A stretch of 64,000 nt of DNA. Origin: Bdellovibrionales bacterium. GTDB lineage: Bacteria > Bdellovibrionota > Bdellovibrionia > Bdellovibrionales > UBA1609. The DNA is taken from assembly GCA_041391465.1 (NCBI GenBank), contig JAWKNX010000018.1, positions 563 through 64,562 of the forward strand. Direction: 5' to 3'. How positions within the stretch are numbered: the stretch's first letter is position 1; every line of letters begins with the position of its first letter. Made by a program: the position numbers and the translations under genes. Shown here piece by piece: positions 23,211 to 28,709 of this stretch. The notes under the pieces were generated by a model that had not been told where the DNA came from, did not search any database, and saw nothing but the letters and a program-made list of their open reading frames with translations.

Positions 23211-24205
23211 TATTTCCATTTTTAATTCCCTTCCTCAACGGTTTTAAATCTTTTTTTTAAGGCTCCTATTACGTGGTCCATTTTTGCGGTGAATTTATTA
23301 ATTTATTTATCGAGCTACGACATTAACAGCCGGTTAGATCGTGAGTGGCAATTACAGACCAGCGATGTGGCGCTAATGAGTATGCAAGGTAAGATTTATG
23401 CTGATTATGTTTTAAAGAATAAATCGTTCTATGATCAATTTACTATTGATCTAGCTGGGCAGGTGCAAAAGGGTTATAAACAGAGCTCTTTAATGATGGC
23501 AACGTTTGCCATGAAGGACCCTGATTTTGTCAACGTGGGTTCAGCGAATATGGCTTATAAAGACCCTGTGGCATTTGATTTTTGGCGCAATAAATTTAAA
23601 ACCATTCTTAACTCAAGAGTTGAACACCCGAGCTATTTACTAGGAGTGAGCTATAATAACTCTCTCCCATGACGTGGATCACGTATCAGTTTGTTCACGC
23701 GGATCTGATGCACTTTTTATCGAATATGATTTTTCTTATGTTCTTTGGTGCTTTTATAGAGCGACTCTGCGGGAGCTTGGCCCTTTTACTAATATACTTA
23801 GGCTCTGGGTTTATCGGAGCTGGAGTGTTTGTGTTATGGAGTGGAGTTTCTACCGTTCCGCTTGTCGGTGCCAGTGCTGCCGTGAGCGGAATCATGGCAT
23901 TTTTGTGTGTTTATTTGTGGCAAAGACCTATTAAGTACATTTACTGGTTATTTATTCCCATTCGTGGTTACGCGGGCTTTGTTTACCTACCGGCGTGGGT
24001 GGCTTTTGTGGCCTGGGCCATGACCGATTTATCGGGTTACTTGGGCGAAACCTTTGTGGGCGGAGTGGCTTACACCGCTCACTTGGGTGGTGACATTACT
24101 GGTGCGCTAGCGGCACTAGCAGTATTGGCTTACAAAAAATACTTCTTAAAACAAACTTTTAAAAAGAACCACCGCGGGTTTATATCCGGCCAAGTGAAAG
24201 TGTAA
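23207..24205 (+). CDS. Rhomboid-family intramembrane serine protease (frameshifted)
   Basis: FVHADLMHFLSNM, VGASAAVSG, AHLGG; GTG start overlaps the RDD stop (GTGA). Confidence 0.88.
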
Positions 24206-24502
24206 TTCAGAACCTATCAACTCGCACTTTCGTTTTATGAAGATTGTGAGAAGATTAAATTAACTGGTCCAATTAAAAACCAATTTGAGAGAGCTTCACT
24301 AAGCATTGTTCTTAATCTCGCTGAAGGTTCAGGTAAACCTTCAAGAAAAGAGAAAGCTCGATTTTATTCGATAGCAATGGGATCTTTAAGAGAAGTGCAG
24401 GCGATAATTACAGTGAGTCGACAATCACAGCTTGAAGATCAAGCCGATAAACTGGGGGCATATCTTTATAAATTAATAAAAAATCCTTGTGGCGGAAGTT
24501 AA
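24206..24502 (+). CDS. Four-helix-bundle protein (23S rRNA IVP/TIGR02436-like); start codon missing, not in the ORF track
   Basis: Manual translation FRTYQLALSFYEDC...NQFERASLSIVLNLAEGSGKPSRKEKARFYSIAMGSLREVQAI...DKLGAYLYKL. Confidence 0.82.
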   Translation, partial: FRTYQLALSFYEDCEKIKLTGPIKNQFERASLSIVLNLAEGSGKPSRKEKARFYSIAMGSLREVQAIITVSRQSQLEDQADKLGAYLYKLIKNPCGGS

Positions 24503-24527
24503 TTCCGCTACATTTTTTTGCCAGTTT
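24406..24527 (+). repeat. Direct repeat copy 1: 3' end of the four-helix gene plus terminator
   Basis: Matches 25605-25724 with 3 substitutions and a T7/T5 difference. Confidence 0.92.
24489..24519 (+). terminator. Intrinsic terminator overlapping the four-helix gene stop
   Basis: GTGGCGGAA-GTTAA-TTCCGCTAC then AT7. Confidence 0.65.
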
Positions 24528-24580
24528 GCCAGTTTGCCAGTTTGCCAGTTTGCCAGTTTGCCAGTTTGCCAGTTTGCCAG
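24517..24580. repeat. Tandem repeat (TTTGCCAG) x8
   Basis: Eight perfect 8-bp units. Confidence 0.97.
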
Positions 24581-24776
24581 AGCAAGCGAAGACCTTGGCA
24601 TCCAGCTGATCTTTGCGAATAGACTTGAGGCTAAAGGAAGAATTGAGCGGACATACGACTAGAAACTCTACTTTGAGTTCTACAAGGAAATCCACGGGCT
24701 TTTTGACCACCTCCACGAGCATAGGGTCACAGGGAAGCCTATTAATCTGGAAAGGAAGAAAATGGGGGCATAGCTT

Positions 24777-25391
24777 TTATCGTACTGCGCCAGATGGATT
24801 TGAATTGTTGTCATATACGGGAATTCGCGGCTGAAAAGGAAAATACCCTTTCCCCTTCTTATTAGTTACCTCAACATTTTGAAGCCAATGCAATCCATCA
24901 AGTTGGGCACAACGCCGATAATATTCGTAATGATTTTCATTAAAATTGGTTTCATTTAATTTTGAGCGTGCAATGAAGTCGGCAATATAACGAGTCATGT
25001 TCTTCTCTAGCCGGTCATCAATTTCATTAGATGTGGACCTACAATTAGGTATTCTTACATTTGCTTTTCCGCGCATACCAAAAACATTCACCCCTGGGTC
25101 TCTGTAGGCATTTGCTCCTTGGCCAGATGTTTCATTCCAAATTAAGTTATACCCTGAGCCTGTTTGAATTAGAGCCGCCCGTTTTGTGGGTACATATTTG
25201 CTATTACTGGAACCTGGGTTTTCATATTCCAAAAATAAGTCCCTCTGCATTCTCTCCCAACAAAGATCTACAGGATCAACATTTATACATTTTGCACCGC
25301 TAGAACTATCACATTTTGAATCTTGAGCATGCGAGGTGCTCAGTAATCCTATAAATACACACAGACCGATAATAATATTTAGACTTTTCAT
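24777..25391 (-). CDS. Hypothetical secreted protein (cargo between the direct repeats)
   Basis: Signal peptide ending SHA; 204-aa intact AT-rich ORF. Confidence 0.75.
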   Translation of the reverse strand: MKSLNIIIGLCVFIGLLSTSHAQDSKCDSSSGAKCINVDPVDLCWERMQRDLFLEYENPGSSNSKYVPTKRAALIQTGSGYNLIWNETSGQGANAYRDPGVNVFGMRGKANVRIPNCRSTSNEIDDRLEKNMTRYIADFIARSKLNETNFNENHYEYYRRCAQLDGLHWLQNVEVTNKKGKGYFPFQPRIPVYDNNSNPSGAVR

Positions 25392-25604
25392 GTTTATATT
25401 CTAATCGGATATGATCCCATTTATATATCGATCAATATCAAATCAAGACTTTCGGGATAATTTTATATAATAAAACCAGAACTCATCTCGACGTAAGTCT
25501 ATTCAGTTGAAACATAAATATTAGGACTCGAATGCAACTTACTGCAATCACTGACGGGACATTTTCCCAGGAAAGTTAAAGGGACATAATCGCTGGACAA
25601 TCAC

Positions 25605-25724
25605 AATTACAGTGAGTCGACAATCACAGCTTGAAGATCAAGCGGATAAACTTGGGGCATACCTTTATAAATTAATAAAAAATCCTTGTGGCGGAAGTTA
25701 ATTCCGCTACATTTTTGCCAGTTT
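25605..25724 (+). repeat. Direct repeat copy 2: orphan 3' fragment of the four-helix gene, terminator and one TTTGCCAG unit
   Basis: See copy 1; overlaps the putA stop codon. Confidence 0.92.
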
Positions 25725-28709
25725 ATTCTTCCTCGGCTGGAGCAAATCCACGGCGCATGGTATTTTCAGTGATCACTCGAGGCTCCATAAACTGTTTCAA
25801 GTAATCAGGGCCACCGGTTTTACTACCAACACCTGACATTTTAAAACCACCAAAAGGATGGCGATCAACAATTGCACCAGTAATCGAGCGGTTGATATAC
25901 AAATTACCCACTTCAAACTTCTTTTTTACGAGTTCAATGTTACCCGGGCTTCTTGAAAACAATCCGCCTGTCAGACCATATTCAGTGTTATTAGCGACCT
26001 CAATGGCTTCTTCAATGTCTTTAACTTTTATGACTGCCAAAACCGGTCCAAACAATTCCGTATGGGCGATTTCATCATCGGGCTTTACATCAACAACAAT
26101 AGTCGGAGGAACATAGTATCCCCCTTCAATGCGCGGTCCCTGATAAGCAACTTTGGCATAACTTCGTGATTTTTCAACGTGAGTGAGGATCTTGTTCATC
26201 GCCTCTTGGTCAACTACGGGACCGAGATAAGCCGATGGATCTTCTGCAGAAGATTGCTTTATACTCTTTGTCGTCTCAACCAATCGTTCAACAAACGGCT
26301 CATAGACTTCTTCAAGAACAATTACTCGCGAACAAGCGGAGCATTTTTGACCTTGAAACCCAAATGCCGAATAAACAGTGGATGCAACGGCTTCGTCTAA
26401 ATCGGCATCGTTGTCGATGATGAGAGCGTTTTTGCCACCCATTTCTATAATACATCTTTTTACATTTTTTGGCCGGATTGAGTGCGACCGGCTTTTTCAA
26501 TGATATGTAGGCCCACTTGTTTTGAGCCGGTAAACGCAATCATATCGATGTCTTTATGGCCGGTGAGAAACTCACCAATCTCTTCACCCAATCCAGGCAC
26601 ATACTGTACAACACCGGCAGGAAGACCGGCCTCTATCAGAAGTTTCATCAGCTCATGTGCCACAATAGAGCTCTGCTCTGCCGGCTTCATAATGACGGTA
26701 TTACCAGCGACAATGCTAGCGGTGACCATTCCAGTAAGAATCGCCAACGGGAAGTTCCAGGGGGCGATTACAAGCGAAACCCCACGCGGTTCATAAATAT
26801 AATGGCTGTGTTCGCCGAGAACTTTTCCGATTTTCTCGGGTTGGGCGAGGTGACGCATTTCTTTGGCGTAATATCTGCAAAAATCAATGGCCTCTATAAT
26901 ATCGCCATCTGCTTCAGCCCAGGGCTTGCCCACTTCAAGGACTTCTAGAGCTGAAAGTTTATATCGATCTCTTAAAATTAATTCGGCCAGCCGATCTACA
27001 AGAGCTGCTCGCTCTAAAGGATCCGTGTCGGCCCACCCCCTAAATGCCGCCTTCGCATCGACCAAAGCTTTTTCAGCCTCCGCACAGCCGGCGATACCGA
27101 TATGGCCGACCACTTCGTCTTTTTTAGACGGATTTTCTCGCGTAATTGTCCGGTCAGTGGTTACAGGCTTGTTATTAATAATTACCGGGTATGTTTGACC
27201 GAGATTCTTCTTCCACTCCTCGAGGGCGGCGTGCATTTTTTCACGTGGCTCAGGCTCAGTAAAATCCAATGGGGCTTCATTGTGAAACTCTTTTTCCAGT
27301 TGATGTTTGCCAGTGGAAACTGCGAGATCAACACTTGGGTCACGCATCAGCTGTTCCAGTTCCGCACCCTCAACAAATTTAGATCGTAAAAACGATTCGT
27401 TAGAAGTGTTTTCAAGGAGACGCCTTACTAAATAAGCCATTCCAGGGATCAGTTCACCTACGGTGGCATACTCACGTACACGATAGCCTTTTTGTACAAA
27501 GGCGGCTTTGAGTTCGTCGGCCATCCCGTAAAGCATTTGAATTTCAAAAGCATTTTTCGCAAGCCCAATCGACTCCGCATAGCAAGCACTAGCAGCCAAA
27601 GAACGAACATTATGAGAGGCTAATGCCACTTTAATGTGTGGGCAATTGTCCAAAAGCAATCGCGCACATTTTTCGTAATTTGCATCTGATTCTTGTTTAT
27701 TCGTGTAAACCGGGATCGGCCAATCTTTTTGGCTAGTGACAATATTTTCGTAATCCCAGTAAGCACCTTTGACTAAACGAATGCTAAATGGAGTCCCGCG
27801 TTCTTTGGCAAATGCGACCAGTTTTTCAGCATCGGCATAAGAGTCTCTCAGGTAGGCCTGGAGGACGATTCCCCAATGGGGATAAGATTTAAAATCAGGC
27901 TCCATGAGTAATTGTTTAAATACATCAAAAGTTAAATCCTTGTGGTGAAAGGATTCCATGTCGATATTGATAAAAACACTGCGTTCTTTGGCTAAATAAA
28001 AAATCGGTCTTAAACGCTCTTTTAATGTTTCGATGGAACCTTGCCAGTCTTTTTCATTCACTTGCGAGTAAAGGCTGGTGAGCTTTACCGACACATTGAC
28101 TTTGGGGATTTTGCCCATGGCATCCTCATCGAGGAGGGGGTTGTGTGTCCAGCTCTCAGCATCTTTACTGATCCAATTAATGATTTCTGTATAGCGAGTT
28201 TGATAATCGATCGCTTCTTTTTCGGACAGGGTGGCTTCACCTAAGAGGTCAACGGTAAACGCGATGTTGTTAGCTCGTTGGGATTTCAAAATGGGCAGTG
28301 CACTTTTTGGGTTCTCACCGGTGATAAACATCTTAGCCATTTGTTGCACATTTTTGCGAATGGCTTTTGCCATGAGCCCTGGAGCCAGTGCTCCCACTCC
28401 CACGCCCACGTTAAAAATGTTGGCAATGTCGGCACCTTTGCCCTGTAAATCATTAAAATATTCTTTAATGTGTTTAGAGACTTCTTGGTTGGAGTTCAGC
28501 GTAGGTAAAACATCGACAAAGCGAAACATGCGCGTTTTAAAATCTTCGTTTTGCATGCTCCATTCCATGATACGCCCATACCACCAGTCCTTGCGAAAAA
28601 ACCCTCCTTTGGCCGGCGCTTTTTCGGCTGCGGAGAAGATCTCTCTACCAAACTGAGTGATCTGTTGCTGATTGTTGTTTACATCCGAGTTGTTTGTTAA
28701 ATGCGACAT
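25723..28709 (-). CDS. putA: Bifunctional proline dehydrogenase / P5C dehydrogenase (frameshift near 26455)
   Basis: RLVKGAYWDYE, YLVRRLLENTSNESF, IAPWNFPLAI, FTGSKQVG, GGKNA, GQKCSACS, ELFGPV. Confidence 0.95.

What the first reader, a model, noticed from the sequence alone, without database searches (positions are those of the whole stretch)
24206..25724. Four-helix-bundle gene as an apparent integration target: 3' end duplicated around a 1.1-kb cargo with only synonymous differences
Seen: an unannotated four-helix-bundle reading frame (24206-24502). Its last ~32 codons, terminator and first TTTGCCAG unit recur at 25605-25724, against the putA stop. The three substitutions are GCC/GCG (Ala), CTG/CTT (Leu) and TAT/TAC (Tyr), all silent. 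Between the copies lie the expanded 8-mer array and one secreted-protein gene. Known: elements that integrate into coding 3' ends carry a replacement 3' end and displace the original. Inference: the two copies come from different functional alleles, so a small recombinase-less element carrying a four-helix 3' end plus cargo recombined in. Four-helix-bundle/short-repeat units may therefore act as minimal gene-capture modules.
Basis: partly seen in the sequence, partly recalled or inferred. Interest (0 to 1): 0.72.

Follow-up and report, generated by a model that had tools for sequence, protein, structure and literature searches.

The report
Decayed cargo transposon within a duplication
The repeated gene end is real, but the DNA between the two copies is the wreck of a known kind of jumping element (transposase scraps, one passenger gene, one intact end), and it was likely joined to a second, related gene copy by an ordinary short-match recombination, so this is probably not a new enzyme-free gene-capture device.

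Summary
The repeat is real: 112 nt, three silent differences. Fused to the TTTGCCAG array are two scraps of an IS1202-family (ISNCY) transposase (NCBIfam E 7.7e-8). Copy 2 starts on the base after an IS right end (E 1.4e-7, only significant hit in the genome). The orphan secreted-protein gene lies between transposase stop and right end, as passengers do in related Bdellovibrionales elements with 16-17-bp target repeats. So the cargo is a transporter-IS passenger, and the element is not recombinase-less. The four-helix gene has no start codon, so nothing is restored. Relatives have an empty site; 0 of 109 related loci repeat this layout. Best reading (0.65): the IS hit one of two related, once-functional cassette copies, and a microhomology join between the other copy's array and the transposase removed the IS left half. 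'Different functional alleles' is probably right; 'gene-capture module' is not supported. No read covers the array-transposase junction. The scan found repeat-armed four-helix cassettes before on other DNA. Side finding: a Bdellovibrionales IS clade carrying unrelated, mostly secreted orphan genes.

The parts
23669..24205 (+). 3' part of the host rhomboid protease gene (left neighbour); its TAA directly precedes the four-helix frame. The split from 23289-23672 is likely a one-base assembly error.
   Evidence: PF01694; single 334-aa gene in a congener-type locus; +1 base at 23661 in a short-read contig
24206..24502 (+). Four-helix-bundle (23S rRNA IVP family) frame, copy 1: open for 98 codons but without start codon, ribosome-binding site or the upstream palindrome seen in many relatives
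   Evidence: PF05635 E 1.9e-15, TIGR02436 E 9.7e-17; 68 of 69 related genes have a start codon; junction confirmed in X1 and X3 contigs
24488..24519 (+). Terminator-like hairpin plus 7 T, copy 1
24517..24580 (+). (TTTGCCAG)8 array, downstream arm of the four-helix cassette; its last 11 nt read as the first codons (Q-F-A-R) of the transposase scrap
24570..24662 (+). Scrap of the catalytic core of an IS1202-family (ISNCY) transposase, 30 codons then TAG
   Evidence: NF033594 E 7.7e-8, profile 215-243, far below the whole-protein cut-off; up to 72% identical to transposases of the same order
24663..24773 (+). Scrap of the C-terminal tail of the same kind of transposase; about 150 codons between the two scraps are missing
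   Evidence: tblastn with 5 long-tailed homologues; best hit among 81,964 genome ORFs with a tail profile, E 0.0013
24777..25391 (-). 204-aa orphan protein with a predicted signal peptide; the passenger of the IS
   Evidence: no Pfam or NCBIfam family; only itself in two large protein searches; signal peptide by a crude script rule
25551..25605 (+). IS right end: two GACA-headed binding blocks and terminal ACA
   Evidence: profile of 16 relatives' right ends, window not included: E 1.4e-7, ends on the last model column, next genome hit E 1.1; blastn to L108, L117, L124, L125
25606..25701 (+). Four-helix 3' end, copy 2 (31 codons + TAA), three silent differences from copy 1
   Evidence: identical in X2 and X3 contigs
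25687..25721 (+). Terminator hairpin, 5 T and a single TTTGCCAG unit; in run X2 the hairpin is followed by a longer T run and a TTTGCCTG array instead
25723..26442 (-). 3' part of host putA (right neighbour), stop codon at 25723-25725
   Evidence: PF00171

Best explanation
The stretch between the two copies is the decayed right part of an IS1202-family transporter insertion sequence (transposase scraps, one passenger gene, right end) that likely jumped into one four-helix-bundle cassette copy and was likely joined later, by a short sequence match, to the repeat array of a second, related copy. SHOWN: transposase scraps, passenger position, IS right end abutting copy 2, empty site in relatives, missing start codon. 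INFERRED, in order: (1) A repeat-armed four-helix cassette (copy A) came to lie between the convergent stops of rhomboid and putA and lost its 5' part. (2) A sister cassette (copy B, about 97% identical) was hit at the position equal to 24407 by the IS. Copy B stayed under selection until then; it was a paralogue elsewhere in the genome or a tandem neighbour. A 16-17-bp target repeat would have formed, and its left copy is gone. (3) A crossover or deletion at the match between A's array and the transposase's Q-F-x-R codons fused A to the inside of the IS, removing the IS left end, about 225 transposase codons and B's 5' part. (4) The array behind copy 2 shrank to one unit in this strain. The result is an immobile relic in which only the passenger gene looks intact.
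For: IS identity. Right end terminates exactly one base before the duplicated coding sequence. Related elements: of 37 loci examined a right end was found downstream in 18. Of these, 6 carry passenger ORFs between transposase stop and right end, and 13 show a target repeat, mostly 16-17 bp; in 5 passenger elements the repeat encloses the passenger. The window's tail scrap matched only long-tailed transposases of the passenger-carrying clade. Microhomology: the join site ranks in the top 0.2-6.1% of array-like 14-mers in 6 of 7 tested genes of that clade, top 18% in the seventh (kin, not independent). Two constrained copies. In 6 of 17 multi-locus genomes the closest dispersed paralogues are 90-97% identical, all with more silent change than neutral expectation, and one further pair has 11 silent and 0 replacement changes at 95.7%. 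Same-organism contigs differ from the window at only 2 letters in about 4.4 kb (my sum of table 8), against 3 in 112 between the copies, which fits paralogues better than same-site alleles. Run X2 shows copy 2 followed by an array with a different unit. The genome holds another solo array of this family on C12.
Against: No contig or read covers 24307-24520 or 24581-24789, so the key array/transposase junction rests on the assembly alone. No second four-helix paralogue and no intact IS were found in this genome, which is 58% complete. Same-strand tandem cassettes, one possible precursor, were seen in 0 of 109 related loci. Three substitutions are weak statistics. The microhomology is only moderately above chance, and the GCC codon in the join may come from the array. 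The order of events is not shown.
Confidence: 0.65

Rival explanations
1. Single-allele duplication with the IS at the junction (Dup-IS-Dup). The IS inserted while 120-180 bp of the resident cassette were duplicated, with the right end at 24407 and the left end in or behind the array. The left half was deleted later, and the three differences arose afterwards.
For: Precedent: an IS481 copy between two copies of a 60-kb duplication, inserted in a tandem REP cluster without target repeat (PMC11708052, section 8). Needs no second cassette, and none was found.
Against: Three of three silent has probability 0.01-0.07 under this history. The transposase scrap differs from homologues at conserved residues while copy 2 has no replacement change. 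The X2 array unit differs from copy 1's unit. Relatives of this IS make 16-17-bp repeats, not about 115 bp.
Confidence: 0.2
2. Assembly chimera: two strains or loci (one with cassette plus array, one with IS wreck plus copy 2) were joined at the array by the assembler.
For: The junction lies in a perfect tandem repeat and is not covered by any contig laid. The population is polymorphic behind copy 2 (X2 versus X3).
Against: The assembly carries single-base indels in low-complexity runs that break rhomboid and putA and are corrected by short-read contigs. This points to a long-read assembly, in which a 64-nt array and a 112-nt repeat are normally spanned (inference). The array meets the transposase in register with Q-F-x-R, which a misjoin between arrays would not produce. 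Contamination is 0.35%.
Confidence: 0.07
3. One reading: a small recombinase-less element made of a four-helix 3' end, array and cargo integrates into four-helix genes and supplies a replacement 3' end; such units capture genes.
For: Empty sites in relatives. Silent-only differences. The 316 nt before the terminator occur with two different downstream contexts in two samples, which could mean the block has moved.
Against: Transposase scraps and an IS end account for the interval and for the exact 5' boundary of copy 2. The repaired gene has no start codon. No second copy of the cargo or the block in the assembly, and 0 of 109 related loci have the layout.
Confidence: 0.05

Closest known systems
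IS1202 family (formerly ISNCY), ISTde1 subgroup and transporter IS such as ISKpn21, ISKpn63, ISKpn65, ISShal2, ISRel10 (10.1101/2022.12.17.520857, parts 1-2 of 4 and passages read; PMC10132070, passages read)
   Same: DDE transposase homology (NF033594), terminal ACA with an internal second binding block, a passenger gene inside the element, 16-17-bp target repeats in the relatives found here.
   Different: The window holds only a relic: no left end, transposase reduced to two scraps, no visible target repeat. The passenger elements named in the text I read belong to the ISAba32 and IS1202 subgroups (5 of 166). Here a clade with 16-17-bp repeats carries unrelated, mostly signal-peptide passengers.
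IS at the junction of a duplication (SBW25-Dup-IS, IS481; PMC11708052, abstract and section 8 read)
   Same: IS between two direct copies, no short target repeat, a tandem repeat cluster at the join.
   Different: There the IS is intact, the copies are identical and 60 kb long; here the IS is half deleted and the copies are about 115 bp and differ at three silent sites.
PF05635 / TIGR02436 four-helix-bundle genes of 23S rRNA intervening sequences (PMC4990558, search listing only; PMC3936711, passages) and the repeat-armed cassettes noted earlier in this scan
   Same: Same protein family, short-repeat array behind the gene, position between the stop codons of two host genes, patchy and often multi-copy in the order (95 of 301 genomes).
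   Different: Not in rRNA; only the downstream arm remains; no start codon; 3' end present twice around an IS relic.
Integrative elements that carry a replacement 3' end of their target gene (general knowledge, recalled)
   Same: A gene's 3' end appears twice around inserted DNA.
   Different: No integrase in the interval; the displaced piece starts at an IS terminus; the gene that would be restored has no start codon.

Membership tests
IS1202 family | Transposase homologous to the family (DDE core) | tested here: met
   NF033594 E 7.7e-8 over 29 residues; C-terminal scrap E 0.0013
IS1202 family | Single intact 400-500-aa transposase ORF with N-terminal HTH | tested here: not met
   Only 30 + 36 codons remain, 31.9 bits against a cut-off of 250; hence filed as a relic, not as an intact member
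IS1202 family | Right end with terminal ACA and an internal second binding block | tested here: met
   25551-25605, E 1.4e-7
IS1202 family | Left end (TGT...) upstream of the transposase | tested here: not met
   No second significant hit on either strand of the genome; the array is fused to the transposase interior
IS1202 family, ISTde1 subgroup | 16-17-bp target repeat | tested here: inconclusive
   Cannot be seen in the window without the left end; 16-17 bp in 9 of 18 related elements with a right end, and 16 bp plus a tandem left end in 2 more
IS1202 family, ISTde1 subgroup | [quoted passage not shown] | not tested
   No ISTde1 reference sequence was aligned
Transporter IS (tIS) | Unrelated passenger gene between the IS ends | tested here: met
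   Passenger lies between transposase stop (24773) and right end (25605); same layout enclosed by target repeats in 5 relatives
PF05635 / TIGR02436 | Profile score above the curated cut-off | tested here: met
   57.4 vs 33.8 bits; 61.2 vs 24 bits
PF05635 / TIGR02436 (as a working gene) | Start codon and ribosome-binding site | tested here: not met
   Frame begins after an in-frame TAA; 68 of 69 relatives have a start
23S rRNA intervening sequence | Located inside an rRNA gene | tested here: not met
   Lies between rhomboid and putA
Repeat-armed four-helix cassette (earlier scan notes) | Two inverted repeat arms around the gene | tested here: not met
   Only the downstream array exists; no complementary array upstream
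Integrative element with replacement 3' end | Site-specific recombinase inside the element | tested here: not met
   Of the ORFs of the interval scanned (cargo, 24489-24659, 24613-24831) none hit a Pfam family
Integrative element with replacement 3' end | Target gene restored as a working gene | tested here: not met
   No start codon

The most novel reading that the evidence does not exclude
The short-repeat arrays of four-helix cassettes are active recombination sites, not passive flanks. A block of transposase scrap, passenger, IS end and four-helix 3' end was lifted from a sister cassette and slotted into this array between units 8 and 9 through 8-11-bp matches at both ends. Arrays would then be landing pads that relocate and immobilise IS-borne secreted-protein genes in predatory bacteria, and four-helix cassettes could in turn ride inside IS1202 elements (as in L062), giving the transposase-less cassette a vehicle.
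Probability: 0.1. Interest if true: 0.7.

Novelty: new member of a known kind. Interest (0 to 1): 0.32.

Why it matters
As a locus it is a relic and mostly a caution: a duplicated gene end with silent differences can be made by an IS plus an ordinary deletion, and 30-codon transposase scraps are easy to miss. Two points have wider value. First, the relic leads to a Bdellovibrionales clade of IS1202-family elements that each carry a different, mostly secreted orphan gene inside their target repeats. That is a likely route by which predatory bacteria shuffle lineage-specific secreted proteins, and I did not find it described (searches; the preprint's supplementary table was not seen). Second, it gives a concrete case of a four-helix cassette array lying at a rearrangement joint, which bears on the open question of how these transposase-less cassettes move.

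Tried and rejected
Other four-helix alleles in the own genome: none by tblastn, blastn or Pfam; the genome is 58% complete, so this is not absence. Intact parent IS in the own genome: none. Same-species contigs in JGI metagenomes: 0 hits with a pattern from the repeat. One hit with a rhomboid C-terminal pattern, L138, has another gene and no cassette at the site. Family-wide DNA search for the cassette: 3 of 108 other genomes with short or weak matches, one of them only an array. Cargo function: no family, no homologue, no usable Atlas hit, predicted model pLDDT 0.32; no fold job was sent. A 115-bp target-site duplication by the IS itself: rejected, because relatives make 16-17 bp. 5'-truncated retro-copies: rejected, because copy 2 starts exactly at an IS terminus. 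Missing start codon as a sequencing error: rejected, because two contigs confirm the junction. Copies as the left and right genes of a divergent pair: rejected, since such pairs are inverted and 48-71% identical. An RNA-run contig covers part of the cargo (X5), but contigs cannot show transcription, so I do not use it. My first IS-end pattern had a wrong spacing and found nothing; the first genome-wide tail search crashed and was redone. Literature on four-helix genes with repeat arrays: nothing on this layout in the listings; one search gave no paper that I used.

Full report
OBSERVATION. The repeat is there as described. 24406-24517 and 25605-25716 match at 109 of 112 bases. With a two-base gap in the T run the match runs through the first TTTGCCAG unit to the putA stop (122 columns, E 4e-50). 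The three differences are third-position and silent. The frame 24206-24502 belongs to PF05635 / TIGR02436. The array has 8 perfect units, both copies end in a terminator-like hairpin, and a 204-aa ORF lies on the minus strand. That protein has no family and no homologue but itself in two large searches; a crude rule calls a signal peptide. Homologues of the four-helix protein come almost all from Bdellovibrionota genomes.

IS IT AN ARTEFACT? Contigs of public runs from two studies were laid on the region; X1 may be the source sample. They bridge the rhomboid/four-helix junction (X1, X3), the junction before copy 2 (X1, X2) and the copy 2/putA junction (X3), and X2 and X3 carry copy 2's three alleles. 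Nothing covers 24307-24520 or 24581-24789, so copy 1's alleles and the junction behind the array are not independently confirmed. The window has single-base indels at 23251, 23661 and 26464 against these contigs. The last two fall where rhomboid and putA are split into two frames. I infer a long-read assembly, which makes a misjoin at a 64-nt array unlikely but not excluded. One X2 contig matches 25401-25716 exactly and then continues into a longer T run and a TTTGCCTG array instead of one TTTGCCAG unit and putA. So what follows copy 2 is polymorphic, or copy 2 also exists at another locus.

EMPTY SITE. Of 19 putA loci fetched from relatives, 15 have the rhomboid gene next to putA and none has a four-helix gene. 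In 14 the aligned ends are 20-223 nt apart; in the congener G001 a different 283-aa gene fills the gap. G001 has no PF05635 match at all. The whole insert is therefore recent and lineage-specific.

(1) The four-helix frame has no start: it begins on the base after the rhomboid TAA, and G001 has its rhomboid stop at the same place. Among related genes with room upstream, 68 of 69 have a start codon and 41 of those a ribosome-binding motif. Copy 1 is a 5'-truncated relic. (2) The 30 codons from 24570 hit NCBIfam NF033594, ISNCY transposase, at E 7.7e-8. They match transposases in 36 of 300 other genomes of the order at up to 72% identity. After one stop, 24663-24773 matches the C-terminal tail of five long-tailed homologues and is the best of 81,964 genome ORFs for a profile of those tails (E 0.0013; next 0.22). 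About 150 codons are missing between the scraps. (3) A profile built from 16 right ends of related elements, without the window, finds 25551-25605 at E 1.4e-7, ending on the last model column; the next genome hit has E 1.1. Copy 2's coding sequence starts at 25606. The layout is: truncated gene A, terminator, array | transposase scraps, passenger, IS right end | 3' end of gene B, terminator, one unit, putA.

THE IS FAMILY. IS1202-family elements have a 400-500-aa transposase, TGT/ACA ends with an inner binding block, and target repeats of 5-6, 16-17 or 27-28 bp; 5 of 166 carry a passenger gene (10.1101/2022.12.17.520857; PMC10132070). I examined 37 related loci. A right end was found downstream of the transposase in 18, a target repeat in 13 of these (16-17 bp in 9; 16 bp plus a tandem left end in 2; 13 and 21 bp once each), and passenger ORFs in 6. 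In 5 of the 6 the target repeat encloses transposase and passenger, so the passenger travels with the element. Passengers are unrelated to each other and to the window's, 6 of 9 have a predicted signal peptide, and 1 of 9 passenger or candidate-passenger proteins scanned has a Pfam hit above cut-off (a trypsin-like domain). In a tree of 27 transposases, a clade with support 99/98 holds 8 rows, 7 labelled as passenger-bearing. Two of the 7 (L161, L108) were labelled from a downstream ORF or shared downstream sequence without a right end being seen, the eighth is cut by its contig end, and two passenger elements with broken transposases (L160, L163) were left out. The window's tail scrap matched only members of this clade. 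The cargo is thus the passenger of a transporter IS.

HOW THE DUPLICATION AROSE. A simple insertion gives a 16-17-bp repeat and an interrupted gene, not a whole 3' end on both sides, so a second step is needed. The array runs in register into the Q-F-x-R codons of the transposase. In 6 of 7 tested genes of the clade this site is among the top 0.2-6.1% of array-like 14-mers, in one only the top 18%, and across all 19 homologues 11 are within 7%. This is moderate support for a microhomology join that removed the IS left end. For the origin of the two copies: three silent changes of three has probability 0.011-0.023 if both drifted, 0.04-0.07 if one was constrained and 0.4-0.5 if both were. Same-organism contigs differ from the window at 2 letters in about 4.4 kb (my sum of table 8), far less than 3 in 112. 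Dispersed paralogues in related genomes are often this close: the best pair is 90-97% identical in 6 of 17 multi-locus genomes, with silent changes in the majority in 4 of the 6 and above neutral expectation in all 6. PF05635 is patchy and often multi-copy in the order (95 of 301 genomes, up to 15 scored matches). The genome has a second, solo array of the same family on C12, and X2 shows a third unit variant behind copy 2. I therefore favour two sister cassette copies, one hit by the IS, fused by a microhomology crossover or deletion (0.65). Whether B was a tandem neighbour, a distant paralogue or an allele from a sister lineage cannot be told. A one-step duplication with the IS at the junction has precedent (PMC11708052) and gets 0.2; a chimera gets 0.07.

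THE CAPTURE-MODULE IDEA. In 79 related loci with up to 4-kb flanks, 28 have a divergent partner gene, 4 a convergent one and none a second copy on the same strand; 30 further loci with 1.5-kb flanks add none. The layout is a one-off among these 109. The only other IS association is L062, where an intact four-helix gene lies inside an IS1202-family element, between transposase stop and right end, without a target repeat.

KNOWN AND NEW. Earlier notes of this scan describe repeat-armed four-helix cassettes in many genomes, some placed between stop codons. I confirmed the stop-to-stop position and one arm here, not two arms. Paper searches showed no description of this layout or of a Bdellovibrionales transporter-IS clade. 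The preprint's supplementary table was not seen and may list such elements. The name of the gene filling the site in G001 (MscS-like) is my recollection from its sequence, not a tool result.

VERDICT. Real feature, ordinary mechanism: a decayed transporter IS at the joint of two sister four-helix cassette ends. New member of a known kind; interest 0.32, carried mostly by the passenger-bearing IS clade.

Noticed in passing
L153, L154, L155, L159, L160, L161, L163, L108: A Bdellovibrionales clade of IS1202-family elements with long-tailed transposases carries unrelated passenger genes, mostly signal-peptide orphans, between transposase stop and right end; target repeats enclose the passengers in 5 cases. 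L159 is nested: transposase, passenger, right end, second passenger, second right end, which suggests how passengers are picked up.
   Followed up: partly
L062:3737-6126: An intact four-helix gene with its upstream palindrome lies inside an IS1202-family element, tail to tail with the transposase stop; no target repeat found. A possible vehicle for the transposase-less cassette.
   Followed up: partly
L023-L101: In Bdellovibrionota 28 of 79 four-helix loci are divergent pairs (mostly 55-71% identical) around a short palindrome with a ribosome-binding motif on each side; 4 of 79 are convergent pairs.
   Followed up: partly
window 24420-24429, 25596-25605, 25619-25628: The last 10 nt of the IS end recur inside the four-helix gene 14 nt from the insertion point; this 10-mer occurs 13 times in the genome. 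Unexplained: chance, or target choice by likeness to the IS end.
   Followed up: no
G000:C12:19115-19178: Solo 8-unit array (TTTGCCCG on the minus strand) behind a flagellin-like gene, no four-helix gene beside it; likely the leftover arm of another cassette. Shorter 7-mer arrays at C24:13731-13765 and C2:36094-36121.
   Followed up: partly
window 23251, 23661, 26464: Single-base indels against short-read contigs; the last two split rhomboid and putA into two frames, so pseudogene calls in this assembly need care.
   Followed up: yes
L004 (G001) and L138, rhomboid-putA interval: The congener carries a different 283-aa gene (MscS-like by recollection) at the same site, so this convergent junction has taken up DNA twice independently.
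   Followed up: no
L165, L166: Related IS are followed, after a 16-bp repeat, by a second left end of the same element: repeated insertion at one site.
   Followed up: no
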